Below are positions 336 through 55,874 of a DNA stretch of 64,000 nt, piece by piece (position 1 is the stretch's first letter; each line of letters opens with the position of its first letter). Under the pieces are notes generated by a model. The model saw only the letters and a list, made by a program, of their open reading frames with translations. It had not been told where the DNA came from and did not search any database. Made by a program: the position numbers and the translations under genes. The stretch comes from Prorocentrum cordatum (lineage: Eukaryota), in assembly GCA_963575745.1 (NCBI GenBank), contig CAUYUJ010000262.1, positions 1 to 64,000 of the forward strand, in the 5' to 3' direction.

Positions 336-2143
336 CTCTCCGATCGTTTAAATTAGATTTCAGATTGCGACCTAGTTTAGGCGAGATCCATTTTTACCGA
401 GTCTAGTTTTACCGAGCCGGGACTCGAATACTAAACACAACGTTCTGTATGTCTGGGGTCAAACCCGGGTCAGTCCGGGGTCACTCCAGGGTCAGTCCGA
501 AGTCGGTCCGGGGTCAGTTAGGGGTAGGTCGGTCCGGGGTCAGTCCGGGGTCAGTCCGGGGTCAGTCCGGGGTCAGTCCGGGGTCAGTCCGGGGTCAGTC
601 CGGGGTCAGTCCGGGGCCAGTCCAGGGCCAGTCCGGGGTCAGTCCGGGGTCAGTCCGGGGTCAGTACGGGCGTCATCGGGTCAGTCCGGGGTCAGTCCGG
701 GGTCAGTCGGGGGTCAGTCCGGGGGGCAGTCCGGGGTCAGTCCGGGGCCAGTCCGGGGTAAGTCCGGGGTCAGTCCGGGGTTCAGTCCGGGTCAGCGGGG
801 GTCAGTTCCGGGACGGTCCGGGCGGGTCAGTCCGGGGTCAGTCCGGGGTCAGTCCGGGGTCAGTCCGGGGTCAGTCCGGGGTCAGTCCGAGGTCAGTCCG
901 GGGTCAGTCCGGGGCCAGTCCGGGGTCAGTCCGGGGTCAGTCCGGGGCCAGTCCGGGGTCAGTCCGGGGTCAGTCCGGGGTCAGTCCGGGGTCAGTCCGG
1001 GGTCAGTCCGGGGTCTGTCCGGGGTCGGTCCGGGGTCGGTCCGGGGTCCGTCCGGGGTCCGTCCGGGGTCCGTCCGGGGTCCGTCCGGGTTCCGTCCGGG
1101 GTCGGGGTCGGTCCGGGGTCGGTCCGGGGTCGGTCTGGGGTCAGTCCGGGGTCAGTCCGGGGTCAGTCCGGGGTCAGTTCGGGGTCAGTCCGGGGTCAGT
1201 CCGGGGTCAGTCTGGGGTCAGTCCGGGGTCAGTCAGTCCGGGGTCAGTCCGGGGCCAGTCCGGGGCCGGTCCAGGGCCAGTCCGGGGTCAGTCCGGGGTC
1301 AGTCCGGGGTCAGTCCGGGGTCAGTCCGGGGCCAGTCCAGTCCGGGGCCCAGTCCGTCTCCGGGGTCAGTCTGGGGTCAGTCCGGGGTCAGTCCGGGGTC
1401 AGTCCGGGGTCAGTCCGGGGTCAGTCCCGGGTCAGTCCGGGGTCAGTCCGGGGTCAGTCCGGGGTCAGTCAGTCCGGGGTCAGTCCGGGGTCAGTCCGGG
1501 GTCAGTCCGGGGTCAGTCCGGGGTCAGTCCGGGGTCAGTCCGGGGTCAGTCCGGGGTCAGTCCGGGGCAAGTCCGGGGCCAGTCCGGGGTCAGTCCGGGG
1601 CCAGTCCGGGGCCAGTCCGGGGTCAGTCCGGGGCCAGTCCGGGGTCAGTCCGGGGTCAGTCCGGGGTCGGTCCGGGGTCAGTCCGGGATCAGTCCGGGGT
1701 CAGTCGGGGGTCAGTCCGGGGCCAGTTTGGGCTCCGTGCGGGGTCCGTTTGGGCCGGGGTCAGTCCGGGGTTGGTCCAGGGTCGGATCCGGGGTTTGCCT
1801 GAGGTTTGTCCAGGGTCTGTCGGGGGTCAGTCTGGGGCCAGCCTGGGTCAGTCCCGGAGTGACCTGCAGGATTGACCGTGCAGACCGACCCTTGAATGAC
1901 CCGTGCGTATATGGAGCCTGATCGGATCGAATTCAGCGCAGCCGAGCCGACCGCCACATTAGGTGCACGCGTATGTGGGAGCGCCCGAATGGAAAGGAGA
2001 GCGGAGGGTATTTTAATGCATGGGAAATGAAAATGCAAGCGGGCCGATCTAGTTTTCGGAATTGCAGAAGTCGGGGACCGAAACTTCCGATCTAGTTTAG
2101 CCGAGACCTAGTTTCACCGATTCTATTTTTAACGAGCGGAGTG
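336..2143. mobile_element. Non-autonomous TIR element, TA-flanked (Tc1/mariner/pogo-type signature), inserted in TAC microsatellite
   Basis: Left end ctctccgatcgtttaaattaga matches the reverse complement of the right end, cactccgctcgttaaaaataga (18/22). TA lies at 334-335 and 2144-2145. About 15-bp subterminal repeats (ctagtttt/agccgag-like) occur at both ends. No transposase ORF. Confidence 0.7.
449..1855 (+). repeat. 11-bp minisatellite (GGGGTCAGTCC)n inside the TIR element
   Basis: Over 100 tandem copies of cagtccggggt. The 490-aa ORF 449..1921 is just its translation. Confidence 0.97.
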
Positions 2144-2197
2144 TACTACTGCTACTACCACTGCTACCACTACTACGACGGCGACTCCTACTACTAT

Positions 2198-2228
<31 letters not shown>

Positions 2229-2258
2229 TCTTCTACGACTACGACTACTACTTCTGCG

Positions 2259-2338
<80 letters not shown>

Positions 2339-2634
2339 CTCATGCCATTACAAAAACTATTATAGCTCTGCTACTACTACTATGCTTACAAACTACTACT
2401 TGTATTTACTACTGCTACTACAACTACCACTACTAATATTAGTACTGCTGCTGCTACTAACTACTACTAATACTACTACTACTACTACCTACTACTACCA
2501 GCACGACGACTACGACTACTACTACTACTACTACTACTACTAATACTACTACGACTAACTACGACTACTACTACTACGACTAGTGTCGCGAGTATTGTTT
2601 TTACTACTACCACTACTACTTACTACTTACTACT

Positions 2635-2690
<56 letters not shown>

Positions 2691-2779
2691 TCTAACCAGT
2701 AATACTCGACGACGACGACCGACGACCACTGAACCACTACTATACACTACTACTACTACTTCTACTAACTACTACTACA

Positions 2780-2824
<45 letters not shown>

Positions 2825-2964
2825 ATACTACTGCTATACTACTACTATCTACTACTACTACTACTGACTACTACACTACTACTGCTGTGGTGTTACTACT
2901 CTACTACAGCTACTACTACTAGTACTACTGCCACTACTACTACCAGTACTCTTACTACTACTGT

Positions 2965-3003
<39 letters not shown>

Positions 3004-3008
3004 TAACT

Positions 3009-3040
<32 letters not shown>

Positions 3041-3262
3041 TACTTAACTACTACTACTCTACTAATACTTACTACTACTTCTAGTATTACTTACTACTGC
3101 TACTACTACCACTACTACTACTACTACGGCGACGGCTCCGATTACTGTCATGATTATTTCTACTACTACTACTACTACTACTACGACTACTACTACTACT
3201 GACTACTACTACTACTACTACTACTACCACTGATACTTCTACTACGTCTACGACTACGAGTG

Positions 3263-3307
<45 letters not shown>

Positions 3308-3365
3308 TTACCACTACCACGACCACTACGACTGCTACCACTACTACTACCACTACTACGGTTAT

Positions 3366-3410
<45 letters not shown>

Positions 3411-4481
3411 GACTGCTACTACTACTAATACCACTACTACTACCAGTACTATTACTATCACTACGTCTACTACCACTAGTGTCATCACGATTTTTACCAC
3501 TCTTACTACCACTACCACGGCGAATGCTACTGCTACTGCTACTACAACTACTACTAGTACTACCACGACTACGATTATTATTACTACTACTACTACTACG
3601 ACGACTACTACTACTACTACTACTACTACGACTACCACCACTTCTACCACTATTAGAACTACTACCACGACTACTACTACTACTACTACTACTACTACGA
3701 CTACTACTACTACTACTACGACTACTAACTAACTAACTAACTAACTAACTAACCAACTAACTAATAACAATAATAATAATGCGATTACTACTACTACTAC
3801 TTCTACTATGACTACTACGGCTACTACAACGACCATTACGTCTACGATTACTACGACTACTACCTCTACTATGATTACTACTACGACAACGATTGCTACG
3901 ACGACGACTACTACTACTACTACTACTACTACTACTGCTAGTTTTTTACTACTACGATTACGATTACGACTGCTACTACAACTGCGATGGCTATTATCAT
4001 TATTAATATTGCTTATTGTTTCTATTACGACGACGACTACTACTACTACTACTACTACTACTGTTTCTACTACTACTACTATTACGACTACTACTATTAC
4101 TACTACCACCAGTACTACGACTTCGACTGCTACTAGTACTACTGATACGACTACGAGCACGACTACTACAGGCAATACTACGACTACAACGACGACTACT
4201 ACTACGCTAGTACTACTACTACAACTACTACTACGACTACTACGGCTACTCCTACTATTATTACTATTACTACTTTTATTTATTCGTCTGACTATTACTA
4301 CAACTGCGACTACGATTTCGAGCACTAGTACTAGTAGTACGATTACAACTAATAATACTACTACCATTATTAGTAATACCACAACTACTACTACGATGAT
4401 TTACTACTATTACTACTAGTACGACTACGACTACTCCAATCATCGGCATTACCAATATTACTACTACTACTACTACTACTA

Positions 4482-4528
<47 letters not shown>

Positions 4529-4717
4529 GCTACTACTACTACTACTACTACGAACAATACTAGGACTACCACGACTAATATTATTACTACTACTACGACT
4601 ACTAATACTACTACGACGACTACTACTACTACTACTACTACTACGACAACGACGATGGCGACGAATACAAGCATTTACTACGAATACTATTTTCACTAGT
4701 GTAAGCATTATCATCAT

Positions 4718-4756
<39 letters not shown>

Positions 4757-4862
4757 CACTTTTTCTAAGAGTACTACGATTATTTCTGCTACTACCAGTA
4801 CTACCACTACTACGACTGCCGGTGCTACCACTACCACTACAACCACTACTACTACGACTACG

Positions 4863-4911
<49 letters not shown>

Positions 4912-5014
4912 ATACTATTACGACTACGACTACGACTACGACTTCTACTACTACTACTACTACTACTGCTACTACTACTTGAACAACTTTTATGAATGCT
5001 ACTACTACTACGAT

Positions 5015-5054
<40 letters not shown>

Positions 5055-5204
5055 GTTACTATTACTTCGACTACGACTACTACTACGGCTACCACTGCTG
5101 ACACGACCAGTTACTACTGTCACTACTACTACAGCTTCCTACTACCACTACTAGTACTACTACTACTTCTACGACCACTACCACTACTACTACTACTGCT
5201 GCTG

Positions 5205-5241
<37 letters not shown>

Positions 5242-5302
5242 TACTACTAGCGTGACTACTTCTACTACTACTGCTATACTACTATTATTTCTATTACTAC
5301 TT

Positions 5303-5344
<42 letters not shown>

Positions 5345-5345
5345 T

Positions 5346-5381
<36 letters not shown>

Positions 5382-5416
5382 GACTACTACTACTATTACT
5401 ACTATTATTACTACTG

Positions 5417-5452
<36 letters not shown>

Positions 5453-5472
5453 ATACTACGATTAGTACCACG

Positions 5473-5513
<41 letters not shown>

Positions 5514-5589
5514 GACGACCACGACTCCTAGTATTACAACTACGACTTTTCTACTATTGCGACTACTACTACTACTACTACTACTACTA
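2144..5589. repeat. Long degenerate (TAC)n microsatellite
   Basis: 3.4 kb of TAC with GAC/TAT/CAC variants, giving poly-Y/T/L/V/S artefact ORFs. Confidence 0.97.
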
Positions 5590-6450
5590 GGCATCGGTGC
5601 GTTAGGGGACCCCCGCGAATCGATATGGAAAACAATAAGAAAACTTTACAATGGAAAACAATAAGAAACCCTCACAATCAAAAACAATAAGAAATCAACA
5701 CAATCAAAAGCAATAAGAAATCAACACAATCAAAAGCAATAAGAGAACCATACAATCAAAAACGATAAGAAAACCTTGCAAAGGAAAACAATAACAAAAA
5801 AGACAATGGAAAACAATAAGAAAACGTCTTGGAATCACGATCCCTGTGAGGGTTCCAAAAAATAAAAAAAATAAAAAAATCAAAAAAAAATCCAATAAAA
5901 CCTGTGAGGGTTCCAAAAAATCCAAAAATCAATGGTTTTCGGGTCTCCAGGCTGCCTGGGACGGGCTGGGAGGGGGCCGGAGGGAGCTCGAAGACCCGAA
6001 AACCATTGATTTTTTTATTTTGGTTTTATTTGATTTTTTTTGCTTTTTTTGTATTTTTTGGAACCCTCACAGGGATCGTGGTCCCAAGACGTTTCTCTTG
6101 TTGTTTTTAATTGTCTTTTTTGTTATTGTTTTTCCTTGTAATAAGAAAATATTACAATTAACAACAATAAGAAAACCGTACAAACGAAAACAATAAGAAA
6201 ACATTACAATGGAAAGCAATAAGAAAACCTTACAATGGAAAACAATAAGAAACCCTCACAATCAAAAACAGTAAGAAATCAGCACAATCAAAAGCAATAA
6301 GAAATCAACACAATCAAAAGCAATAAGAGATAAGAGAACCATACAATCAAAAACGATAAGAAAACTTTACAAAGGAAAACAATAACAAAAAAGACAATGA
6401 AAAACAATAAGAAAACGTCTTGGAATCACGATCCCTGTGAGGGTTCCAAA

Positions 6451-6485
<35 letters not shown>

Positions 6486-7051
6486 GTGTGAGGGATCCAA
6501 AAAATCCAAAAATCAATGGTTTTCGGGTCTCCAGGCTGCCTGGGACGGGCTGGGAGGGGTCCGGAGGGAGTTCGCAGACCCGAAAACCATTGATTTTTTT
6601 TATTTTTTGGAACACTCACAGGTTTTATTTGATGTTTTTGTATTTTTTTTGATTTTTTGGAACCCTCACAGAGATCGTGGTCCCAAGACGTTTTCTTATT
6701 GTTTTGATTTGTTTTTTTTCTTAGTGTTTTCCATTGTAATAAGAAAATATTACAATTAACAGCAATAAGAAAACCGTACAAACGAAAACAATAAGAAAAC
6801 ATTACAAGGGAAAGCAATAAGAAAACCTTACATTTGAAAACAATAAGAAACCCTCACAATCAAAAACAATAAGAAATCATCACAATCAAAAGCAATAAGA
6901 AATCAACACAATCAAAAGCAATAAGAGAACCATACAATCAAAAACGATAAGAAAACCTTGCAAAGGAAAACAATAACAAAAAAGACAATGAAAAACAATA
7001 AGAAAACGTCTTGGAATCACGATCTCTGTGAGGGTTCCAAAAAATCAACAA

Positions 7052-7090
<39 letters not shown>

Positions 7091-7706
7091 TGAGGGTTCC
7101 AAAAATCCAAAAATCAATGGTTTTCGGGTCTCCAGGCTGCCTGGGACGGGCTGGGAGGGGGCCGGAGGGAGTTCGAACACCCGAAAACCATTGAATTTTG
7201 GATTTTTTGGAACCCTCACAGGTTTTATTGGATTTTTTTTTGATATTTTGAAACCCTCACAGGGATCGTGGTCCCAAGACGTGTTCTTTTTGTTTTTAAT
7301 TGTTTTTTTTGTTATTGTTTTCCTTTGTAAGGTTTTCTTATCGTTTTTGATTGTATGGTTCTCTTATTGCTTTTGATTGTGTTGATTTCTTATTGCTTTT
7401 GATTGTGAAGGTTTCTTATTGTTTTTGATTGTGTGCTTTCCTTATTGTTTTTGATTGTGTTTGTTTCTTATTGTTTTTGATTGCGTTGATTTCTTATTGT
7501 TTTTGATTGTGAGCTTTCCTTATTGTTTTTGAGTGTGTTGGCTTCTTATTGTTTTGATTGCGACGTGTTCGATTGCAAACGTTACTGCAACAACACAGGG
7601 TCAACATCTACATCAACATATGAACGAACTTCTTCGTTTAAATCCCTGCGGCATCGGTCAAAGCAAAAGTGGATGATTTGCGGGGGTCCACTAACGCACC
7701 GTTGGG
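5590..7706. mobile_element. AT-rich foldback-like non-autonomous TIR element, TA-flanked
   Basis: Left ggcatcggtgcgttaggggacccccgcgaatc matches the right-end reverse complement cccaacggtgcgttagtggacccccgcaaatc (27/32). TA lies at 5588-5589 and 7707-7708. Internal aacaataagaaa arrays on the left are mirrored by ttcttattgtt arrays on the right. Three about 590-bp internally palindromic units have GC-rich cores near 5931, 6515 and 7116. Confidence 0.8.
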
Positions 7707-7741
<35 letters not shown>

Positions 7742-7742
7742 G

Positions 7743-7808
<66 letters not shown>

Positions 7809-7899
7809 GATTGTTACTACTACTAATACTGCTACGACTACTACCACCACTACGATACTACTACTACTACCACCACCACCACCACTACTACTACTACTG

Positions 7900-7938
<39 letters not shown>

Positions 7939-7965
7939 ATTCTACGACTTCTACTACTACGTCTT

Positions 7966-8009
<44 letters not shown>

Positions 8010-30371: not shown

Positions 30372-30836
30372 CTGAGATGGAGGCGGCGGAGACGGCGGGC
30401 AGGAGCATGATGGAGGAGGGAACGCGCCTGCCCCCCAGGGCAGGCGCGTCCGACCAGACCCCGCAGAGCACGGCACCGCGGTCGCGCAAGTGTCGCAGGC
30501 CTAGAGGTTGGCACCAACACCAATTTCGGCGGTGTGCCTCCACCGAGGGAAGAAGATCCCGATCTCGGCGATGGTGGTAATACTTTGGCTTCCAAGGTGG
30601 CCGAATCCTGAACACCAACACCGAAGTCGAGGATCATCTTCCCCCAGTGAAGGCAGCCCCCTTGTGTTGGTGATGGTGCCCACTTCCAGGCCTCCAGAAG
30701 TGGTCGCGGCCCCGAAGGGGCCGCGCCCCGTCGCGGGCAGCCGCGCCAGGGCGGCTGTGCGGGCGGCCCGGGCCGGAGCTGCGGGCGCCGTGCGGGGGCC
30801 AGCAAAGAAAAGGAATGGGAAGGCGACGACGGCGAC

Positions 30837-30870
<34 letters not shown>

Positions 30871-30947
30871 GCGACGGCGAGGGCGACGACGGCGACGGCG
30901 ACGGCGACGACGTCAAAAGGGACCGAGAAGGACGGGGAAAGGGAGGA

Positions 30948-30980
<33 letters not shown>

Positions 30981-31069
30981 CGACGACGATTTCAACAAAG
31001 GGAAAGGAAGACAGGAAGTAAGAGGAGGAGGAGGAGAGCGAGGAGGAGGAATAGGATGGGGATGATTTC

Positions 31070-32778
31070 GATCTTGCTATGACCTCCAAGTCTTTGAGCA
31101 TGCTGTAACCATTTGGCTCAAGTACTCATGACCATCTAAAGCTGGCGAGCTTTCAGCTTCGACTGTGCATTCATGCTTGTCGGTGAGAAAACATATTGCC
31201 ACGCGTACCAGCATCCTTCTAGACGGTTTGCATGGTAGCGGAGCGAGATCCTGGCGAGACCCGCTCAGCAATTATCGGCCGCACGGCAAGAATGGTCAGA
31301 TTTTGTTCCAGGAAATGTTGGAACACAGCCTGGCAGCAGGTCAAGGAGGTGACTATGGTTATGTGAAAGCAGCCCCCCACGCAAACCATGATGGAGCCAG
31401 ACAGAAGTGAGCAGGCACTAGCCAGTAATAGTGAGATGCCAAATTAACACACCTCCACCCTCACGCAGAGACCTGGTAAAACAAACGCGGCGCGACTTAG
31501 CATCATGAACCTTGGACAAAAGCACGAGGCGGAGGCCATTGCAGTCAGAAGCAGACAGAGTTATTGAACTGGAATATATAATTGAGGCACAGTCAAACAC
31601 TGACGACCTGCTCACAAATGCGAACGGCACAGTCAACCCAAACCGCGGACGCAATAGTCAAAGGGCGATCAGCAAATCGGAAGCAACCCACGTAGTAACG
31701 AATTTCATTGGTGGCCGATCAAAGTTTCGAGTGGAACGATCGATTTCGAGGTGCACCAGCTCAGGTAAACGACTGCAGCCGCAAAGCGCTCCAAAACGCG
31801 CAAATTCAAGTTTGATACCACGGGCGGAGATTTACCCGATCCAAGTGAGCATCAACGAGCATCACGCCGACATCGACGTCAAGGACCGTTTCCCCTCCTT
31901 CTTTCCCCCCTCTCCCACGCACACTTCTTGCGTCGGCGGCTGGGCAGAGGGCGACTGCTCCAGCGGAGAGAGAACAGGGGATGCGCTGTACGCAAACTGG
32001 GCCCACAACTCTCCCTCCCACAGAGACACGCACAAGCATGCCGAGCTCCGCGCCGACACCGACCCCAAGGACCTCTCCCCCCTCCCTCCTCTATTCGCTT
32101 CTTGGGCATATCGCATTGCATGTTGTTCAGACACACCAGATTCCTGAGGTCACGGCCTCGACCACCTGGTTTCAGGTAGGCCCTGACGGCGTCCGCAGTG
32201 GTGGTCGTACCGTATCGTAGCGCACTATATCGTAAGTGCGGAAATTGGCAATGTCAGGGTGTTCGACGGGAAGCCGCATGCCGCTGCATATACCAAAGCA
32301 CCGCGAGACCGCCATTTACAACATGACAGCAATGATGATTCAGACAAGCTTGACGAGGATTTGTGGAATATCTTTGTTCGTGAAACTTGAAGGGAGAGAT
32401 GCATTGGGCAAGCTGCATGGGCCACATAGAGGCGGAAGGCTCCTAGCGCGCATGTACACATGGCAGTCGGCCACGTCGGGCGCAACATTGTCAACCAAGC
32501 TGGGTCGGTCGGTGAAGCCCGGGAAGCCCAAGGAGGTAAGTGACATTTCACCGAAACTCCAGTAGCGGCGCGCTGTGGTGGACAAGCTTGCAAAATATGG
32601 AACTTCATGTGCGTTACCGCTGCCATTCAGAATGGGGGGGGTCGCGTCGTAATTCAACCCACGCCTGACATGCGCACGTAACCTTCTCACTCAGTCACAT
32701 CATGGGAAGTCGTTATTTAAGCTAGTTGCGCTGCTGCTCGTGAAAACTTCGACTTGGGCCATCAGCTCAACGGCGCGA
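31070..32778 (-). pseudogene. Degraded coding-like sequence of unknown family, interrupted by the YR retrotransposon; continues at 38979-39125
   Basis: Non-repetitive and lower in GC than its surroundings. Minus-strand peptide fragments with stops, e.g. YFASLSTTARRYWSFGEMSLTSLGFPGF...SLPNASLPSSFTNKDIPQILVKLV. The frame rejoins across the insertion. Confidence 0.35.
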
Positions 32779-32846
32779 ATTAAGCTCTGCAGGAGGCGTT
32801 TGTGGCTTGCGTGCGTGATCCGCCGCCGTTCTCCTCGCTCAAGTCT
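32779..32846 (+). repeat. Split direct repeat A1
   Basis: attaagctctgcaggaggcg...ctcgctcaagtct, 67/68 identical to A2 (38786-38853). Confidence 0.95.
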
Positions 32847-32854
32847 CTCAGGGG

Positions 32855-33265
32855 GTGCAAGCGATTCTCGCCGAGGCATTCCCCGACCTCGTCCGCTCCC
32901 TTCAGGCTGCAGTGATAGTCCGCGCTGCTGCCGATCCCTGCCCAGCCTGCGCGTGCAAGCCGACGCGCGCGTGTCCACCCCTCACTTGCTCCTGTCCGTC
33001 GGGCGAGGGGCACCTGTCGGCGGCGCCTGACCCGTCGGCCTCGAGCTGGTGCTGGGCCTTTGGGTTCCTGCAGGGCTTCGTGGCGGGCGTCTCGGTCGCG
33101 GGTTTCTTCATCGCCCGCGAGCTCAGCCGCGGGAGGACGGCCCCCGCTCCGCCGCCGCGCGCCAGCGCGCAGGCGGACCCCCCCGCGTCGGCGGCGTCGG
33201 AGTTCGAGCATGCGGCGGCGGAGCAGGCGCAGCTGGCTCGGCGCAAGGCGCCGACGGGCCGCTGA
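32855..33265 (+). CDS. ORF0: small Cys-rich protein with a predicted single transmembrane helix
   Basis: CPACACKPTRACPPLTCSCP is followed by hydrophobic WCWAFGFLQGFVAGVSVAGFFIA. The stop lies 4 nt before the gag ATG. The start is uncertain (GTG). Confidence 0.5.
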   Translation: MQAILAEAFPDLVRSLQAAVIVRAAADPCPACACKPTRACPPLTCSCPSGEGHLSAAPDPSASSWCWAFGFLQGFVAGVSVAGFFIARELSRGRTAPAPPPRASAQADPPASAASEFEHAAAEQAQLARRKAPTGR

Positions 33266-33269
33266 GCCG

Positions 33270-34433
33270 ATGGCGCTCCCCCCTGGCAGTTTCTACGCAG
33301 CGCGGTTCAATGTCCCTGGCCGTGAGATCCGGCACGAGCGTTTGGTCATCCTGGGAGCGCGCATCATGACCCCCGACCTCGACGTGCACCCCGAGAACCA
33401 GTTCCTCTCGAGGGACGTCAAGGGCATCAGGCCTCTCGACGGACAGGGAGCCGTCGTGGTCGACGGGGCGGGCGCAGGCAGCGCGCACCGCTTCAGGAGG
33501 TTGCCCACGGCGCAGGAGGCGCGGGATGCTGCGCGCGAGGCGGTCGCGGGCGGTGCTGGTGTTCTTCCTCGGGAAGACTTCGGCGTGCACCTCGGCGAGG
33601 GGAACGTGCTCGGGATGGCCCCTGGGCTCATCTTCCTCCGCGACCCCCAGGCAGCGGCCTCGCCGCCTGCGGGTGGCCCCCTGGTGTCCGCTGCGGCGCC
33701 CGCGCCCGGAGGAGGGCCTCTTCCGCTCGGGCCGCCCGACCCCCTCGGCGACGCGCTGGCCTCTGCCCTCAGGCCTGACGGGCCCCCTGCTGCTCCCGTT
33801 GGCGGCCCGGCCACGCCCCCCGCGCCCGAGGGCCCTGGCGGCGACCCGCGGGTCCTCGTCAGCCAGAGGGACACGCGCGGCCGCCGCGATCGCTCGTTCG
33901 GGGACGCGCTCAAGAAGCAGACTGAGCTCGAGCGCGAGGACTGGCCCGCCCTGGGCCCGCGGACCCTGCTCTGGGTCCTCTCGTTCATGCTCGGGATGGC
34001 GGGGGGGGCCGTGGCGTGGCACACGCGCTGGCTCGCAGTGATGGGCATCGCCGAGAGCGAGGAGGCGGCGAAGCAGCACGAGACGATTTGCCGCATCCTC
34101 GAGACGTCGATGGTGTACGATCAGTTGGTGATCACGGAGCTCGCAAGCTTCGAGTACCTCGCGCGGCAGCTGCAGCTCATCGAGGAGAGGGTCTTCGAGG
34201 AGAAGGCGCGGAAGACGGCTGCCGCGCTGAAGGGTCAGGGCAAGAAGGAGGCGCCTGCCCGGGACTCTCTGTCCACCGAGGTCGGCCACTTCCTCGGGAT
34301 CGGAGAGACGAAAGGCAACCTCTGCATCTGCCCAGCGCTGATGTAGTTCATTGCCGAGCAGATGCGCAACGAGGCCGCGGCATCCAAAGAACGACGCAAG
34401 GCCCGCGAGGAGCGGGCCTTACGGGCGCCATGA
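33270..34433 (+). pseudogene. gag-like ORF1 of the YR retrotransposon (one in-frame TAG at 34344-34346)
   Basis: ATG at 33270, reading MALPPGSFY...RHERLVIL, WPALGPRTLLWVLSFM, YDQLVITELASFEYLARQLQLIEE and LCICPALM*FIAEQMRNEAAASKERRKAREER. Located upstream of RT. Confidence 0.8.
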
Positions 34434-36720
34434 CGCCCCCTGGAGACACGAGCTGGGCGGGGCCAGCCCCAGGGCTGCTCAGCTCGCCGAGCCCCAGGCC
34501 CCCAGGGCCACCACCTGGCCCGGGCCCGCCGCAGGCCCCTCGCCAGCGACAGCGGGATGCTCTGCCGCTACCTCTGCTGGACGTCGACGCGCGGCTGCAC
34601 TCCGTGGCAGGGCGTCGGCCTCGTCAGCGCTCCGGCCGCGGTGCTGCCTGGCGGCGGTGGTGCAACGAGGGTATCGAGGCTCTCAACTGGCTCCACGGCC
34701 GCGCTGCGGGGCTTCCTCTCGCTCACGGGTCAGCGGATCACTCCTTGGCACAGCACGTCGCTGTCGAGGAGCTTTAGGAGCATTACCGCAGTTTTGAGTT
34801 GCCAGCTGGCTACAGTGAGCAACGACAGTTTAGTGAAGCATCCCTCGCAGAGGTGCTCGCAACGACCCCTGGCTACCGGAACAGCGCACGGGTCAGACCC
34901 TACGGCAAGGCCCTCGTGGCCTGGCCTGCTCTGTCGGGGCCGCCCCTGGAGGTCGAGTCCGTCGCGCAGCAGGCCGATGCCGTCCAGTTGCAGGGTTGGA
35001 GGCAGAGTGTGCTGAGATCCGAAGTCGAGGTCGCGGAGCTCCAGGTGTCGCTAGGCGTCCAGCAACCCTATGTTGACCCGCGGTTTCGCGATCCTCGGAA
35101 GTATGCTGAGTTTTAAACACGATGTTGCAGCACCACATGATCGAGTGGACTGTGGCGTCCTCTACTTATCCTTCTTACTCCGTTGGGATTTTCTTTGTCG
35201 AGAAGTCGGGCGGGAAGCAGCGTATAGTATTCGACACGAGGGTGGCGAACACATACTTCAAGTCTCCTCCTAGCACGGTGCTGCCGACGCCATCGGCCTG
35301 GGCTTCTCTCGAGTCGTCAGATGACTTCTACGTGGCCCAAGTCGACATCCAGTGCGCTTTTTACCACATGGCGGTCCTCAGCGACGTGGGGGCATCTTCC
35401 GCTTGCCCTCCATCTCGAACCGCTTCGTGGGCTTGACGAGGGTCGGCACCCAGCTCGTGCGCTCGCACACCGTCCTGCAGCCCGTCGTGCGAGTGATGCC
35501 GATGGGCTGGAACTGGGCGCTCTACTTCTGTCAGTCCGCGCTGGTCCGCGGCATGATCGATGTAGGCGTCCAGCCGAGCCGCCACCTGGCCGATGGCTCT
35601 GCTCCCGAGCCGCCCGTCGGCAAGAGGTACCTGGTGGCCGCGGGGTACGTTGACAATTTCTGCGTCGTGTCCCACACGGCCTCGGTAGCGACCTCGAAGG
35701 CCCGCGAGCTCGCGGACCTGCTGACTTCGAGAGGTCTACCCCTTCACGACTTCACCGAAGCCCAGCTGGAGGGCGTTTCCACTGGCATCCAGTTCTCGGG
35801 CAAGGGTAGGCTGCGGGTGCGACCCGACCGCCTGGCCAGGCTGCGGCAGGCGACCCTTGCCATTCTGTCGCGCGGCTCGGCGTCGCGAGGAGCCATGACC
35901 TCAATAGTGGGTCACGCCACCTGGGCCATGATCATGCAGATAGAGTGCCTGTCGATATTCAACGGTGTTTATCGGTTTATTCAAGTTGCAGGTCCCACTC
36001 CCATGAAGCTTTGGCCATCGGTCCGACAGGAACTCTCAGCCGTGGCCGCACTGTTGCCGATGATGTGGGCGTCGTCTCGCGTCCCGTGGCTAGGCAGCGT
36101 CTACGCATCAGATGCCTCGCCGCACGGGAAGGGAGTGTCTTGAAAAAGCTGGACCCCCACATTGTCGCGTCCACGGGCAGGTTTGCTGAGAAGTGGAGGC
36201 ACAAGCTTTCGGAGGCCATCTCTGCCAGAGCCCATGCGTTCGGAGGAGGAGGAGGAGATGAATCGGGTCATCAAGATGCTGCTGCTGGTTGCGCGCTGCC
36301 ATCGGCTGCGCTGCTCGGGGAGGGGGACATCGCCACCATCTCGGACTGCGTCGAGGTGCCGTCGGTGCTTTACGATTTGGACGAGTGGGTCATCAGTCAT
36401 TCCAGTCGTCATCGCCGTATGGGTCTCAACATCCTGGAGTATGAGGGGGGGGCGCTGTGTTTTGCTATCCGTCACGCAGCTCGGAAGACTGGCAACCATG
36501 GGCGCCGCATCCTGTTTCTCGTCGACAATTTGGCCATGGCTCTTAGTTGCGGCAAGGGCCGCACTGGCTCTCAGCAGCTGCGACACCTCCTTCGACGGAT
36601 TGCCGCTCTCAGCCTCACCACTGGTATCCGAGTTGTCCTGCGATGGATTCCGAGTGAGCGGAACGTTGCCGATGGCCCCTCCAGGTCGGGCTTCTTCCTG
36701 GGGCCGTGGAAGGACTTCGA
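34430..36720 (+). pseudogene. pol: reverse transcriptase + RNase H (stop at 34775; frameshifts near 35115, 35390, 36135)
   Basis: RT motifs GIFFVEKSGGKQRIVFD, VDIQCAFYHM, MPMGWNWA (about 35496) and YVDN (35646). RNase H motifs YASDAS..GKGV (36108), NILEYEG, LVDN and RWIPSERNVADGPSR. The 3' end is approximate. Confidence 0.93.
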
Positions 36721-37857
36721 AGACGAAGCAGGCGAGGAGACCCTCGAGCGCCGACCTGCGTCTCGATGTGCAGCGGACGCTCCCTCACGCTGGCTTCCTG
36801 CAGCTGCTGAACGGCGAGACCTCGTTCCTCGAGAACGCCGCGGTGACTCAGCGGACGTTGGACTCGCACCGCGCTCACGCCGTGCGCTTCCACCAGTTGT
36901 GCTCGTGGACGGCTCAGTCGTTCGGGAGCGCCGCCGAGCTGGACGCCCTGCTGCTGGTTTTCTTCGGGAACCTTTGCCTGGACGGCTTCGACACGGCGAC
37001 GGGGCGCATGACGATGGCGGCCCTGCGCCATCTGCCACCACACCTGTTGCCGGGCCCCGCCCCTTGCCGCGGGCCACGCGAGCTCTCAAGGGCTGGGGGC
37101 GCCTGGTACCCCCTCAGATGCGTCTTCCCCTGCCGCGGCTGGCGATGTTGGCGGCGGTGGGACTACTCACCATGGAGAAGAGGTTTGGAGAGGCCGTCTT
37201 CGTGAGGCTGGCTTTCAACACCTACCTCGGGCCCAGCGAGGCCTATCGCCTGGTGGCAGGCAGTCTGGTGGGGCCGCGGGCGGGGTCGACGGACGGCTAC
37301 CAGCACTGGGTGATGATCGTCAACGATGCGACGACGGGCGGCCCTGGCAAGACGGGGGTGACCGACGAGAGCGTGATCGTCGACAACGCCTGTCTGCGGC
37401 CGCTCCTCCAGGGCTTGAAGCGGCACCGCGCGGCGAGCGATCCGCTCTGGTGCTTCCCACCGTCGGCGATCCGCCAGGCCTTCCGCGAGTCGCTGATCAG
37501 GCTCGGCATATGGGACGGCGTCTCGACCCTCTACACGCCGAGGCATGGGGGGGCGTCCGACGACCTCCTGTCGTGCCGCCGTTCCAGGAAGGGGTGAAGG
37601 ATCGCGGGAGGTGGGCCACCGACGCCTTGCTCAGGCGCTACGCCAACCGGTCCCGCATGCAGCAGCTCATCGCCGCCCTCCCGAAGCACGTCGCGGCGCT
37701 GGGCAGCGCGGTCGACGGGCGGGAGGCCGAGCTCATCTCGACGATGGCGGCGACTGGCGTTTGCCCGCTGCCGCCCCTGCCGCCACACCGACGGGCGCCG
37801 CCGAAGGTCAAGCGGACCTGCCCGCCCCAGCTGAGTCGCAGGTGGCTCTTCGGCTGA
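36672..37857 (+). pseudogene. Tyrosine recombinase (frameshifts near 37060 and 37580; catalytic Arg changed to Gly)
   Basis: The ATG at 36672 overlaps the RNase H end. Motifs are RALKGW...RLPLP, TYLGPSE (from YLRPSE; GGG at 37229), GKTG, YTPRHGGAS (37532), RGRW (37604) and RRY (37633). Confidence 0.92.
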
Positions 37858-38639
37858 CTAGACTGTTCAGGCGTGCCACTCGCCACAGCCAGGCTGCGCC
37901 TCGTTTCATTTTCTTGTTGTGTGGCTCGCACCTCGAGCGTATCGATAAGGCTTGTCGCCAGCAGGGTCTAGGTTGCGTTGTTCTGGGCCCGAGTCGGTGC
38001 CCTACCGACAACCTGGGCATGCCTGGGGCGCCCCTCGTCGTCCACGGTTGGATTCGCGGCCCCTGTGTTGCGGGGTCCTGGTTTCGGCCTGGTCTCCCGT
38101 CCTGGTCCGTGTGCGCCAGGCCCCCAGCCAGGTCGTCGGCTCGGCCCCTCGGGCTCGCCCATCTCAGTTCGATTGTACAGGCTCAGGTCAATGTCGCTAA
38201 TACTGATACTCACAAATTGTTGCAGACGCTTAGAGTGTGCGTCCACTGTAACGTTCCTGCCATTCTCGAGCATCCTGCTAGCAGCGCGCTGTGGCACCAT
38301 CCTCTCGTTCTGCACCTCCTTCGGTACGAATCGTCCGAGGCTGTCTACGATGCGTGTATGTTCGAAGGCCGCGTTCACCGCACCTGGCGCATCGCAGGCT
38401 GGCACGTGAGTGGCTTGCACAAACTCTCTGTTCGATGTGAATGCTCGCGTGCTAGATGTGACAGATCTCGCAAGTTTCATATTGGCTCTCTCGGACTTAT
38501 TCAACTTGACGCGGCCCAAAGGGCCCAAGCTCGAAATACTCCCAAGCATGTTGCGGTTGAAGGTGTGCACGCCGCGCTCGAGAGCGCCCGTCGTTTAGCC
38601 TCGGTCGCGAGGATCTGTAAAGCTATCACGTCTTGTTGA
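37840..38639 (+). CDS. C5 cytosine DNA methyltransferase-like domain with degenerate catalytic motifs, probably the C-terminus of a YR fusion
   Basis: Uninterrupted frame with DNMT-like motif order: FIFLLCGS (motif I-like, 37905), D-N-L, WFRPGLPSWS..AR (in place of PPCxxxS, 38079), ILEHPASSALW (ENP, 38268), YDACMFEG, then a Cys/His cluster and QARNTP. Recognised by eye, not by HMM. Confidence 0.7.
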
Positions 38640-38697
38640 ATGGGTTTTGTTTTGGGGGGCGGCCTCTCGGCCAGTTCACCTAGCTAGCATGTGTGGT

Positions 38698-38978
38698 ACC
38701 GTTTTGTGCCCAGCATGCTTGTGGCCTCGGAGCGCCCTCGGCCCCTTCGCACAAAAAGGAGCGTCTGGTCTGAACCCGCCCCCACATTAAGCTCTGCAGG
38801 AGGCGTTTGTGGCTTGCGTGTGTGATCCGCCGCCGTTCTCCTCGCTCAAGTCTTTCCCTCCCCCCTTTCCCTGCTATTTCTCTCGCTTTCACCGTTTTGT
38901 GCCCAGCATGCTTGTGGCCTCGGAGCGCCCTCGGCCCGTCGCACAAAAAGGAGCGTCTGGTCTCAACCCGCCCCCACA
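38698..38978 (+). repeat. 3' split direct repeats B1-A2-(37-bp pyrimidine spacer)-B2
   Basis: B1 (89 bp) and B2 (88 bp) differ by two substitutions and one indel. A2 directly abuts B1. Confidence 0.95.
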
Positions 38979-40295
38979 GTTGTGTCATAGTTTCTGGGTC
39001 ACTGAGCTTGCTGTCACAATTTGTTGAAGCATGCATCGCCACCGCAAATTTGACGAGTTTTCCGCTTCGACCATAGCTATGTCTGTCGTAGTCATCCTGA
39101 CCAGCATAATGCTTTTGAGAAAAATCCAAGAACGAGCAGGAAAAGAGGAGGAGGCAGCAGCAGCAGGTGGATAGGTGGGAGGAGGGGGGGCAGGAGGCGG
39201 AGATGAAGGAAGAGGAAAACGAAAGAAAAGCCCAGATGCGCCAACGATGTTGCAACACACCTTCGCATGCCAAACCCCTTCCCCAGAGGCCATTCCAGGT
39301 TATTTCACCATGCGCGCAGTGGACACACGAGTGCGCCCTGCGCCTGCCACTTAGGAGAGAGCCCCGGTTTGAAAAGGGATTGCCGCACACCATTTCTAGC
39401 GAATTAGAAGGAATATGAAAAGCTGGGATCATCAATGTTAACGTTGTGTCCAGCGGGAGCTTAGTTTTGTGCAACCAGCGCCCTGCAAAGGTTGAGAAAA
39501 GTTGGAGCCAGAGCCCCAGTTTGAACGAGAATCGCCCTCCATCCAACCTTCTGATCGTTATCGAAAACGCCTACGGCGAACACCGCAGCCCCGTGTCTTT
39601 GGGAAGCGCCACTGCGTCCAAACGCTGGGGCAAAGCTTGGCCAAGGTGTCGAGCTATGGGTCCCCCCAGCCATTTGAGGAAAGAAAAAGCAAACAGCAGG
39701 AGAGGTTGGAGGAGCAGGAGGAGGAGGAGGAGAAGGAGACGGGGTAGGAGGAAGAGGAAGAGAAGAAGGAAAAGGAGAAGGAGGAACAGAAAAACCACGA
39801 GGAGGAGCTGGAGGGGGAGGAGAACAAGAATAAGAAGACGGAGGCCTCCTGGGGGCCTCTCCGTGGCCCCTTGGAGTCATACGGAGCTGCCTTGGAGCCA
39901 TAGTGGGCCGCTTTCGATTCATCCTTGCCGTGTTGGAGGGCAACATGGACCGCATTGGAGGCCATGCGCAGCCATCCTGGACGTCTCGGGGGCCATCTTG
40001 GGCCAGCTTAGCCATCCCGGGCAGCCTTTGCGCAGTCGTGTGGAAATTTTGGGGGTACATTGCGTTGTATTCGGGATGTATTGGAGGCCTTGTCGGCCGT
40101 CTGAGACGAACGGCTCTTTCAACATCGCTTTCGCATTGAGAATGTCTCAGTCCAGGTGTTCATCTCTTAAGATCTGAAGACTTTGCGAGCTCGCTCGACA
40201 TCTCCATGCTCTGGGGATATCTCCAGGCGAAACGCGCGTCCGCCCACCACTCGGAAGATCTTCAAAATGTGGGAGACAAGGTGTTCGAGGAGGTA

Positions 40296-55774: not shown

Positions 55775-55874
55775 NNNNNNNNNNNNNNNNNNNNNNNNNN
55801 NNNNNNNNNNNNNNNNNNNNNNNNNNNNNNNNNNNNNNNNNNNNNNNNNNNNNNNNNNNNNNNNNNNNNNNNNN
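55775..55874. other. Assembly gap (100 N)
   Basis: Run of 100 N between (GAG)n and (CCT)n tracts. Confidence 0.99.

What the first reader, a model, noticed from the sequence alone, without database searches (positions are those of the whole stretch)
37840..38639. Retrotransposon carries an apparently catalytically dead cytosine-methyltransferase domain on its recombinase
Seen: an open approximately 265-codon frame after the YR keeps DNMT motif order and spacing. The FxGxG SAM motif reads LLCGSHLE, the catalytic PPC reads PGLP (no Cys), ENP reads EHP and the motif VIII-like residues are altered. Codons look less GC3-rich than in the YR. Known: C5 DNMT domains occur in Symbiodinium DIRS and LINE retrotransposons (de Mendoza et al. 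2018). Inference: the terminal repeats have diverged at only about 4 of 157 positions, too little post-insertion decay to explain multi-residue changes at every catalytic motif. The active parent may therefore already have encoded a pseudo-DNMT, for example a DNA-binding, targeting or anti-silencing module fused to the recombinase (frameshift near 37840).
Basis: partly seen in the sequence, partly recalled or inferred. Interest (0 to 1): 0.75.

Follow-up and report, generated by a model that had tools for sequence, protein, structure and literature searches.

The report
Dead cytosine-methylase domain on retrotransposon polymerase
A broken copy of a recombinase-type jumping gene ends in a domain that folds like a DNA cytosine methylase but has lost the residues needed for catalysis, a loss shared with its closest relatives; the domain belongs to the polymerase reading frame, not to the recombinase.

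Summary

It has 454 relatives (E <= 1e-3) in a large family that Pfam does not detect. With a 56-sequence alignment it models at pLDDT 94.6. The 14 best structural matches are all C5 cytosine methyltransferases (Z 11.2-9.0).

Most relatives keep the motifs: FxGxG, PC (119 of 137), ENP and QxxxxWRKRT. This copy has GSHLE, GL, EHP and MFEGRVHRTWR, so it is predicted to be catalytically dead.

Its three best hits read PQ in place of PC. It forms a supported clade with four Cys-less relatives. The repeats have diverged too little for the loss to have arisen after insertion, so it predates this insertion.

The link to the recombinase is not supported. The domain continues the Pol frame (RT, RNase H, linker, domain), and the recombinase gene lies nested in a second frame. 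The nearest full-length relative reads this path as one 1381-residue ORF.

The copy itself is dead, with one stop and five -1 frame slips.

Selection for a non-catalytic role is inferred from the open frame only. dN/dS could not be computed.

The parts
32779..32849 (+). Terminal repeat A1 of a split-direct-repeat (A1 ... B1-A2 ... B2) element
   Evidence: 97% identical to 38786-38856 over 71 nt.
33270..34346 (+). gag-like ORF (frame 0), GC3 0.86
   Evidence: Open frame with an ATG at 33270. No Pfam match. GC3. The function is assumed from its position only.
34430..36700 (+). Pol, RT and RNase H part. It is read in frames 2, 1, 0, 2, with -1 slips near 35113, 35385 and 36134 and an in-frame TAG at 34775-34777
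   Evidence: Co-linear tblastn to P0002 residues 13-838 at 36-45% identity, with '*' at 34775. Relatives of this length give weak PF00078 matches. The window pieces themselves have no Pfam match.
36672..37857 (+). Tyrosine recombinase gene nested in the Pol ORF. It is read in frames 0, 2, 1 (slips near 37050 and 37585). It has YLGPSE at 37223-37240, TPRHGGAS at 37535-37558, RGRW..RRY at 37603-37641 and TGA at 37855-37857
   Evidence: Translations. blastp of the pieces matches P0064, P0057 and P0017 (E 1e-3 to 9e-13) and P0033. GC3 is 0.87-0.92 in these frames. No Pfam match. Motif names are recalled.
36700..37841 (+). Pol-frame 'linker' that overlaps the recombinase gene. It is read in frames 2, 1, 0 and is open throughout
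   Evidence: The staircase of open frames 35810-37597, 37012-37857 and 37497-38639. P0002 778-864 maps on frame 2, P0002 850-1033 on frame 1 and P0001 38-98 on frame 0. The third frame holds about 10 stops.
37842..38639 (+). C5-cytosine-methyltransferase-fold domain, predicted catalytically dead, 265 codons plus TGA, GC3 0.60
   Evidence: Relatives. Alignments. Model pLDDT 94.6. Fold matches. Motif states.
37911..37937 (+). Motif I remnant FLLCGSHLE. F, G, G of FxGxG are replaced by G, H, E
   Evidence: Among relatives, F is present in 96 of 108, G1 in 101 of 108 and G2 in 71 of 108.
38082..38108 (+). Motif IV remnant FRPGLPSWS. PC is replaced by GL, so there is no nucleophile
   Evidence: Cys is present in 119 of 137 relatives.
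38262..38285 (+). Motif VI ILEHPASS. Glu and Pro are kept, Asn is replaced by His
   Evidence: Among relatives, E is present in 146 of 149, N in 127 of 149 and H in 8 of 149.
38355..38393 (+). Motif VIII remnant CMFEGRVHRTWRI
   Evidence: Family W, R, K and T (129, 122 and 136 of 147; 137 of 145) are replaced by V, H, R and W.
38433..38480 (+). Cys/His cluster RCECSRARCDRSRKFH. Together with C172 these are the family's near-invariant C, C, C, H, all kept
   Evidence: C in 144 of 147, 137 of 137 and 135 of 135; H in 133 of 135. Zinc binding is inferred.
38698..38786 (+). Repeat B1
   Evidence: 96.6% identical to 38891-38978.
38786..38856 (+). Repeat A2
38891..38978 (+). Repeat B2, the right end of the 6.2-kb element

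Best explanation
The stretch is the C-terminal domain of the Pol polyprotein of a 6.2-kb split-direct-repeat (Ngaro/PAT-type) tyrosine-recombinase retrotransposon, 32779-38978. The domain belongs to a large family of compact (about 260 residues) C5-cytosine-methyltransferase-fold domains carried by such elements. Standard methylase profiles miss this family.

Most members keep motifs I, IV (PC), VI (ENP) and VIII and are presumably enzymes. This copy comes from a small sub-lineage that lost the catalytic cysteine before the copy inserted. It has also lost the glycines and acidic residues that hold S-adenosylmethionine. It therefore cannot methylate and probably cannot bind the cofactor.

In the intact parent, Pol ran as one frame of about 1,400 codons: RT, RNase H, a linker of about 365 codons, then the dead methylase fold. 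The recombinase gene was written in the +1 frame across that linker. The present copy is dead: one nonsense codon and five -1 frame slips, two of which also break the recombinase.

Shown:
- the fold and family membership;
- the motif losses;
- shared loss in the nearest relatives;
- the frame geometry.

Inferred:
- The lineage kept the domain open and folded under selection for a non-catalytic job.
- That job is most likely nucleic-acid (cDNA) binding through the retained Cys/His module, or partnering with active methylases as DNMT3L and DRM3 do.
For: Family: 454 relatives at E <= 1e-3, the best at 3e-21 and 32-35% identity.

Fold:
- AlphaFold2 on a 56-row alignment gives pLDDT 94.6 and pTM 0.92.
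- All Foldseek matches with E <= 1e-3 (5) are DNMT3A/3B or DNMT2.
- VIA-align against 48,161 chains puts 14 C5 methyltransferases on top (Z 11.2 to 9.0). Short-chain dehydrogenases follow from Z 8.9.
- A profile search of PDB sequences puts DNMT2 first (E 0.022-0.035), with motifs I and IV aligned.
- PF00145 is the commonest weak Pfam match (8 of 56 members, best E 5.7e-4).

Motif states.

Shared loss:
- Hits 1-3 (P0001, P0002, P0003) and P0055 read PPQ and LE(A/G)P.
- With the 48 motif columns removed, the window groups with P0034, P0001, P0002 and P0003, all Cys-less, at 98/86 support. Adding P0008 gives 87/82.

Age of the loss: repeats differ at 4 mismatches and 1 indel in 160 columns, yet 21 of 45 strongly conserved columns are changed.

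Open frame:
- No stop in 265 codons, against 4 and 13 in the other frames.
- In a neutral-drift simulation to 47% residue change, only 2 of 400 runs stayed free of stops.
- The four near-invariant C/C/C/H residues are kept.

Pol frame:
- P0002 (1381 residues) maps co-linearly on window frames 2, 1, 0, 2, 1, 0 up to the domain.
- This path is open throughout.
- The extension of P0001 upstream of the domain reads the same alternative frame across the recombinase RRY motif.
- 11 of the 150 listed relatives are proteins of 1291-1441 residues with the domain at their C-terminus. 8 of the 11 have weak PF00078 (reverse transcriptase) matches near the N-terminus.
Against: - No dN/dS could be computed, and no DNA of any relative was obtained. 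No genome is held.
- Losses are not significantly concentrated in the motifs: 7 of 18 motif columns are kept against 17 of 27 outside, Fisher p 0.14.
- The end branch is long (1.03-1.15 against a median of 0.6), and GC3 is far below the rest of the element. Both fit relaxed constraint.
- The Cys-less clade could partly be long-branch attraction. The program flagged query plus P0034, and the bootstrap had not converged (correlation 0.906).
- The single-sequence model was poor (pLDDT 33.7). The confident fold therefore rests on the family alignment and does not prove that this diverged copy folds.
- Pfam finds nothing in the window's own sequence.
- The similarity of the Pol-frame linker to P0002 appears only without composition correction (against 63).
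- 108 of the 150 listed relatives are 300 residues or shorter. 55 of these span the domain, so a separate ORF is common in the wider family.
Confidence: 0.6

Rival explanations
1. Vestigial domain. The sub-lineage no longer needs the methylase domain, which is decaying slowly across the lineage. The frame is still open by luck, or because decay began recently. It has no present function.
For: - Long end branch.
- GC3 is 0.60, against 0.87-0.92 in the recombinase.
- 21 of 45 conserved columns are changed, with no significant excess in the motifs.
- Clade partners P0034 and P0008 are also heavily degenerate, with different residues at the Cys position.
- Being C-terminal, the domain could be lost without harming RT or RNase H.
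Against: - A C-terminal domain that is not needed should pick up stops. The frame has none in 265 codons, and only 2 of 400 neutral simulations at 47% residue change stay open, without even counting indels.
- The four C/C/C/H residues, R97, G104 and E143/P145 are all kept.
- The PQ relatives keep Q and the surrounding SPPQxxWS between clusters that are 55% and 37% identical.
Confidence: 0.27
2. A pseudo-methylase is fused to the tyrosine recombinase and serves it as a DNA-binding or targeting module. One frameshift near 37840 breaks the fusion in this copy.
For: - The domain starts within 20 nt of the recombinase stop codon.
- Four of the 150 relatives carry recombinase-like sequence in frame upstream of the domain: P0064, P0017, P0057, P0033.
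Against: - In three of those four, the recombinase part breaks off into out-of-frame-looking sequence or is deleted before its catalytic half.
- The nearest full-length relative reads RT, RNase H and the domain as one ORF that maps on the non-recombinase frames.
- P0001 shows the same -1 offset between recombinase and domain.
- Undoing the two slips that break the recombinase puts the domain in the Pol frame, not the recombinase frame (inference).
Confidence: 0.08
3. Copy-specific decay. The parent had an active methylase, and all motif changes arose after this insertion.
For: The copy is clearly damaged elsewhere: one stop and five frame slips.
Against: - Repeat divergence of about 2.5-3% predicts about 8 residue changes in the domain and about 1-2 in the 45 conserved columns. 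21 are seen.
- The nearest relatives also lack the Cys.
- The domain itself has no stop or slip.
Confidence: 0.03
4. Not a cytosine methylase relative at all. It could be the Dam-like N6-adenine 'MT' domain known from DIRS1-like elements, or a generic Rossmann fold.
For: - DIRS1-like Pol ends in an MT domain detected with PF05869 (PMC3783388, passages read; PMC3266345, passages read).
- 4 of 56 family members give weak D12-class matches.
- Rossmann-type dehydrogenases reach Z 8.9.
Against: - PF05869 is not among the 17 families matched by the 56 members at E <= 10.
- The motif order and spacing FxGxG, PC, ENP, QxxxxRKR is that of C5 enzymes (motif names recalled).
- The 14 best fold matches are C5 methyltransferases.
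- Profile alignments put the family's PC on the PC of DNMT2 and M.HaeIII.
Confidence: 0.02

Closest known systems
SymbioDIRS-Dnmt3 retrotransposons of Symbiodinium (de Mendoza et al. 2018, PMC5890265; passages and section 7 read)
   Same: - The repeat order A, coding region, B, A, B.
- A cytosine-methylase domain in the Pol ORF together with RT.
- A separate recombinase ORF.
- A GC-rich protist host setting.
   Different: - Their domains were found with the Pfam methylase profile and group with Dnmt3. They keep their key residues under Ka/Ks < 0.2, and one methylated CG in yeast.
- This domain gets no Pfam match.
- It lacks the Cys, the SAM loop and the motif VIII residues.
- The recombinase is nested inside Pol.
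- Whether the family here is a far branch of theirs was not tested. The paper's supplements were not opened.
Catalytically inactive DNMT paralogues DNMT3L (mammals) and DRM3 (Arabidopsis; PMC2965745, search listing and abstract only)
   Same: A methylase fold kept after loss of catalytic residues. This is the model for a non-enzymatic partner or regulator role.
   Different: - Those are host genes with shown partner enzymes.
- Here the fold sits on a retrotransposon Pol, no partner is known, and selection is only inferred.
- The properties of DNMT3L are recalled, not read here.
MT domain of DIRS1-like and PAT-like elements (Piednoel et al. 2011, PMC3266345; Muszewska et al. 2013, PMC3783388; passages read)
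   Same: - A methyltransferase-type domain at the end of Pol after RT and RNase H, of unknown function.
- Long overlaps between the Pol and recombinase ORFs.
   Different: - That MT is Dam-like (N6-adenine, PF05869). The domain here has the C5 fold and motif order and gives no PF05869 match.
- In DIRS1 the recombinase lies before Pol and its catalytic part is not overlapped. Here the whole recombinase gene lies between RNase H and the methylase fold, inside the Pol frame.
- Ngaro elements are said to lack both the MT domain and the overlaps.

Membership tests
C5 cytosine methyltransferase superfamily (fold and motifs of PF00145-type enzymes) | Class I methyltransferase fold closest to C5 enzymes | tested here: met
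   The model has pLDDT 94.6. The top 14 of 48,161 chains are C5 methyltransferases, Z 11.2-9.0 with 171-212 residues aligned. The best Foldseek matches are DNMT3A/3B and DNMT2.
C5 cytosine methyltransferase superfamily (fold and motifs of PF00145-type enzymes) | Motif I FxGxG (SAM loop) | tested here: not met
   The window reads G-S-H-L-E. Among relatives, F is present in 96 of 108, G in 101 of 108 and G in 71 of 108.
C5 cytosine methyltransferase superfamily (fold and motifs of PF00145-type enzymes) | Motif IV Pro-Cys with the catalytic cysteine | tested here: not met
   The window reads G-L. Cys is present in 119 of 137 relatives.
C5 cytosine methyltransferase superfamily (fold and motifs of PF00145-type enzymes) | Motif VI ENV-type glutamate | tested here: met
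   Glu and Pro are kept (LEHP). Asn is replaced by His, as in 8 of 149 relatives.
C5 cytosine methyltransferase superfamily (fold and motifs of PF00145-type enzymes) | Motif VIII Q/R residues | tested here: not met
   MFEGRVHRTWR against the family QFGxxWRKRTR.
C5 cytosine methyltransferase superfamily (fold and motifs of PF00145-type enzymes) | Pfam PF00145 match at the curated score | tested here: not met
   No match for the window at E <= 10. 8 of 56 family members match weakly, best E 5.7e-4.
C5 cytosine methyltransferase superfamily (fold and motifs of PF00145-type enzymes) | SAM binding and methyl transfer | not testable with these tools
   Needs expression and assay.
SymbioDIRS-Dnmt3 (PMC5890265) | Repeats in the order A, coding region, B, A, B | tested here: met
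   A1 32779-32849, B1 38698-38786, A2 38786-38856, B2 38891-38978.
SymbioDIRS-Dnmt3 (PMC5890265) | DNMT domain in the Pol ORF with RT; recombinase in a separate ORF | tested here: met
   Frame path and co-linear mapping of P0002. This is inferred for the intact parent, because this copy is frame-broken.
SymbioDIRS-Dnmt3 (PMC5890265) | Domain recognisable as Dnmt3-type by Pfam and phylogeny | tested here: inconclusive
   There is no Pfam match. DNMT3B and DNMT3A are the top fold matches, but only 0.5-0.8 Z above M.HhaI. No tree with canonical DNMTs was built.
Ngaro/PAT-type tyrosine-recombinase retrotransposons (order DIRS) | Split direct repeats, RT/RNase H and a tyrosine recombinase | tested here: met
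   Repeats. RT/RNase H: by 36-45% identity to proteins with weak PF00078 matches. Recombinase: by HxxR and RGRW..RRY motifs and blastp to relatives. No Pfam match for any window ORF.
DIRS1-type MT domain (Dam-like, PF05869) | Match to the Dam profile PF05869 | tested here: not met
   PF05869 is not among the 17 families matched by the 56 members at E <= 10.

The most novel reading that the evidence does not exclude
A lineage of tyrosine-recombinase retrotransposons in marine protists keeps a catalytically dead cytosine-methylase fold at the end of its polymerase, under purifying selection, as a non-enzymatic module. The module could bind cDNA or methylated DNA, or act as a DNMT3L-like partner for the active methylases of sister elements or the host. 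Its Pol frame overprints the entire recombinase gene, giving about 1.1 kb of dual coding. This would be a pseudoenzyme carried by a mobile element, not by the host.
Probability: 0.35. Interest if true: 0.7.

Novelty: new variant of a known kind. Interest (0 to 1): 0.55.

Why it matters
Methylase-bearing retrotransposons are known from Symbiodinium and a charophyte. There the enzyme is active and is thought to methylate the element's own cDNA.

The family seen here shows that many more recombinase-type elements carry a methylase fold than profile searches reveal. One branch of it has given up catalysis yet kept the fold.

If that branch is under selection, it would be a mobile-element counterpart of host pseudo-methylases such as DNMT3L. 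It would also give a direct test of what the domain does for retrotransposition apart from methylation.

The nested recombinase gene is a clean case of long dual coding. It also explains why gene callers report fused 'Pol-methylase' or 'recombinase-methylase' proteins for these elements.

Tried and rejected
- Pfam on the six window ORFs gave no match at E <= 1.
- phmmer of the domain against PDB sequences gave nothing at E <= 10.
- The word-indexed protein search with the domain gave none at E <= 1e-3 among 1133 candidates.
- The same search with the PQ alignment gave only P0001, P0003 and one weak hit.
- The single-sequence AlphaFold model was unusable, at pLDDT 33.7.
- The whole genome is not held.
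- Three scans found pattern matches but no confirmed relative: two of metagenome contigs and one of viral contigs. The broad alignment A2 was too diverse for a scan. So there is no DNA of relatives, no dN/dS and no direct check of the nested recombinase in relatives.
- Sequencing runs: no RNA holder is listed. Laid contigs gave only three well-supported base differences inside the domain, too few for any selection test.
- Introns as the cause of the frame changes are rejected. The alignments to P0002 are co-linear with no skipped stretch.
- A slippery heptamer for programmed frameshifting near 37700-37857 was not seen by eye. No formal search was made.
- Enrichment of losses in motif columns was not significant (p 0.14).
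- Literature: one search found de Mendoza 2018. A search for dinoflagellate / retrotransposon / DNMT / inactive / catalytic cysteine returned no paper on an inactive methylase domain in a retrotransposon among the 12 listed of 22. This is no proof that none exists.
- Earlier-findings look-ups by place, sequence and relatives returned nothing for this locus.
Full report
**The element**

The finding lies inside a 6.2-kb element bounded by split direct repeats. A1 is 32779-32849, B1 38698-38786, A2 38786-38856 and B2 38891-38978. A1/A2 are 97% identical over 71 nt, and B1/B2 are 96.6% over 89 columns. This A, coding region, B, A, B order is the one described for Ngaro/PAT-type elements and for SymbioDIRS-Dnmt3 (PMC5890265 and PMC3783388, passages read). 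No second copy lies in the window. No whole genome is held.

**The observation**

- Frame 0 is open from 37497 to the TGA at 38637-38639. The domain is 37842-38636, 265 codons.
- The other two frames of that stretch hold 4 and 13 stops.
- GC3 is 0.60, against 0.87-0.92 in the recombinase pieces.

**Is it a methylase relative?**

Sequence tools alone say little:
- No Pfam match for the window.
- No PDB sequence match.
- No hit in the word-indexed search.
- The language-model atlas gave a lead: 0.96 to an unnamed-Pfam cluster auto-labelled cytosine-5 methyltransferase family.

The exhaustive HMMER search found 454 relatives at E <= 1e-3 and 53 at E <= 1e-10. The best scored 3e-21 at 32-35% identity.

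Alignments of 32 and 56 sequences give a clear consensus: FLELFxGxG ... GTPCxSWS ... LENP ... CQFGxxWRKRTR ... C..C..H ... AxxYP. This is the order and spacing of C5-methyltransferase motifs I, IV, VI and VIII (motif names recalled).

- With the 56-row alignment the window's sequence models at pLDDT 94.6 and pTM 0.92. Alone it gave 33.7, so the confidence comes from the family.
- All five Foldseek matches with E <= 1e-3 are DNMT3A/3B or DNMT2.
- The Foldseek-independent search of 48,161 chains puts 14 C5 methyltransferases first: DNMT3B Z 11.2, DNMT3A 10.9, M.HhaI 10.4, down to ZMET2 9.0. Generic Rossmann dehydrogenases follow from Z 8.9.
- Profile searches of PDB sequences put DNMT2 first (E 0.035 and 0.022). 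They align the family's FxGxG and PC on those of DNMT2 and M.HaeIII.
- Eight of 56 members match PF00145 weakly. None matches the Dam profile PF05869 that detects the classical DIRS MT domain (PMC3783388, passages).

**Motif states**

Among the 150 best relatives:
- The catalytic Cys is present in 119 of 137 that cover the column.
- The motif I glycines are present in 101 and 71 of 108.
- ENP Asn is present in 127 of 149.
- Motif VIII W, R and K are present in 129, 122 and 136 of 147, and T in 137 of 145.

The window has G-S-H-L-E for F-x-G-x-G, G-L for P-C, E-H-P for E-N-P, and V-H-R-T-W for W-R-K-R-T. It also has G and N at two conserved Asp columns between motifs I and IV. It keeps the four near-invariant C, C, C, H residues (144 of 147, 137 of 137, 135 of 135, 133 of 135). 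It also keeps R97, G104, E143 and P145.

Overall it keeps 24 of 45 columns that are at least 75% conserved in the family: 7 of 18 inside motifs and 17 of 27 outside. That difference is not significant (Fisher p 0.14).

**Is the loss older than this copy?**

- The three best hits (P0001, P0002, P0003) and P0055 read SPPQ(E/R/T)(T/S)W and LE(A/G)P.
- A quick tree of 107 rows places the window with P0034, P0001, P0002, P0003 and P0008, all Cys-less.
- The same clade appears with the 48 motif columns removed.
- In the careful tree the five-member clade has support 98/86. With P0008 it has 87/82.
- Caveats: the program flagged query plus P0034 as meeting long branches, and the bootstrap had not settled.
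- Sister sequences with intact PC also carry EHP (P0004, P0012, P0103), so EHP is a lineage variant.
- The repeats differ by 4 mismatches and 1 indel in 160 columns. That implies about 1.3-1.6% change per copy since insertion, or about 8 residue changes in the domain and 1-2 in the 45 conserved columns. 21 are seen (inference).

**Constraint**

No dN/dS was possible.

Indirect arguments for constraint:
- In a neutral-substitution simulation on the window's own frame, 278 of 400 runs stay stop-free at 3% residue change, 51 of 400 at 20% and 2 of 400 at 47%. Indels were ignored.
- Within the P0001 cluster (3 members), by eye on the alignment, 8 residue differences fall in the roughly 125 residues upstream of the domain and 3 in the roughly 270 residues of the domain.

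Arguments for relaxed constraint:
- The long end branch (1.03-1.15 against a median of 0.6).
- The low GC3.

**Which protein carries the domain?**

P0002 (1381 residues) aligns co-linearly with the window as follows:

| P0002 residues | Window frame | Window coordinates |
|---|---|---|
| 13-206 | 2 | 34547-35113 |
| 194-294 | 1 | 35041-35376 |
| 301-549 | 0 | 35394-36137 |
| 548-838 | 2 | 36131-37018 |
| 850-1033 | 1 | 37048-37599 (composition correction off) |
| 1104-1354 | 0 | 37803-38570 |

The recombinase is read in the other open frame at each place:
- Frame 0, 36672 to about 37050.
- Frame 2, to about 37590 (YLGPSE, TPRHGGAS).
- Frame 1, to the TGA at 37855-37857 (RGRW..RRY).

So two -1 slips break both genes. 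Without them, Pol (ATG 34430) would run about 1,404 codons to 38639, and the recombinase would lie in its +1 frame. At every point both frames are open, while the third holds about 10 stops.

The part of P0001 upstream of the domain reads ..ALRQ..AAAH.., the same alternative frame that the window's frame 0 gives over the RRY motif. This implies the same offset in a relative only 31% identical.

Eleven of the 150 relatives are proteins of 1291-1441 residues with the domain last. 8 of the 11 have weak PF00078 (reverse transcriptase) matches near the N-terminus. Their roughly 400-residue stretch before the domain is richer in R, G, P and A (0.33-0.53) than the rest of the protein (0.26-0.35) and barely conserved, as expected for an overprinted frame.

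Four relatives show recombinase sequence in frame before the domain. In P0064 and P0017 it breaks off into out-of-frame-looking text. In P0057 the catalytic half is missing. Only P0033 keeps RGRW..RRY in frame.

108 of the 150 are 300 residues or shorter, and 55 of these span the domain. Free-standing ORFs are therefore common in the wider family.

**State of this copy**

- One in-frame TAG at 34775-34777, inside the stretch aligned to P0002.
- Five frame slips on the Pol path, all -1.
- The first recombinase Arg box reads YLGPSE, where P0064 has YARPGE.
- The domain itself has no lesion.

One DNA run holds pieces identical to the window, and pieces about 91% alike over 37944-38348 and 38465-38728. 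One contig there has an extra G after 36138, at the site of one slip. So diverged sister copies exist. The run may be the window's own source and is not independent support.

**Comparison with what is known**

- De Mendoza et al. 2018 describe active, Pfam-detectable Dnmt3-type domains in the Pol of Symbiodinium DIRS-like elements, with Ka/Ks < 0.2. They also describe DIRS elements 'lacking DNMTs' (section 7 read).
- DIRS1-like elements carry a Dam-like MT domain and long Pol/recombinase overlaps. Ngaro elements are said to have neither (PMC3266345, passages).
- The present case is a split-direct-repeat element with a Pfam-invisible C5-fold domain, a sub-lineage without the nucleophile, and a fully nested recombinase gene.
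- Two literature searches found no description of an inactive methylase domain in a retrotransposon. This is not proof of absence.
- Earlier notes of this scan report a similar Pfam-invisible domain on another element of this genome (e1-7626780) and a dead methylase fold in a diatom element (e1-7505056). These are AI notes, used as leads only.

**Verdict**

The DNMT fold and its catalytic death are well supported. Loss before insertion is supported. The link to the recombinase is replaced by a Pol-frame reading with a nested recombinase. A selected non-catalytic function is plausible but untested.

Noticed in passing
window 36672-37857: The whole tyrosine-recombinase gene, about 395 codons including its catalytic HxxR..Y part, lies inside the Pol reading frame in the +1 phase. 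Both frames are open over about 1.1 kb, while the third frame has about 10 stops. In published DIRS1-like elements the overlap spares the catalytic part of the recombinase (PMC3266345, passages).
   Followed up: partly
window 35113, 35385, 36134, 37050, 37585 (approximate): All five frame changes along the Pol path are -1. That fits deletion-biased decay but also systematic single-base deletions in an assembly. One contig of run X1 has an extra G after 36138, at one of these sites. The TAG at 34775-34777 is a substitution and cannot be explained that way.
   Followed up: partly
window 35646-35657: The reverse-transcriptase catalytic box reads YVDN, not YxDD, both here and in the intact-looking relative P0002. 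The second Asp seems to be replaced in this lineage.
   Followed up: no
window 37223-37240: The first conserved Arg box of the recombinase reads YLGPSE (Gly where relatives have Arg or Lys: P0064 YARPGE, P0057 YLKPQE). The recombinase of this copy may be catalytically impaired apart from its two frame slips.
   Followed up: no
window about 2100-8000: A low-GC stretch (0.34-0.38) with strong negative GC skew (down to -0.57). It holds a long (TAC)n-type microsatellite array, for example from about 2150.
   Followed up: no
window 30797-31074 and 39684-39821: Purine-rich GAC/GAG/GGA triplet arrays lie on both sides of the element, in repeat family D1 with 32 copies of a 48-nt register. These look like host low-complexity DNA, not part of the element.
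   Followed up: no
window 55775-55874: A run of 100 N, an assembly gap.
   Followed up: no
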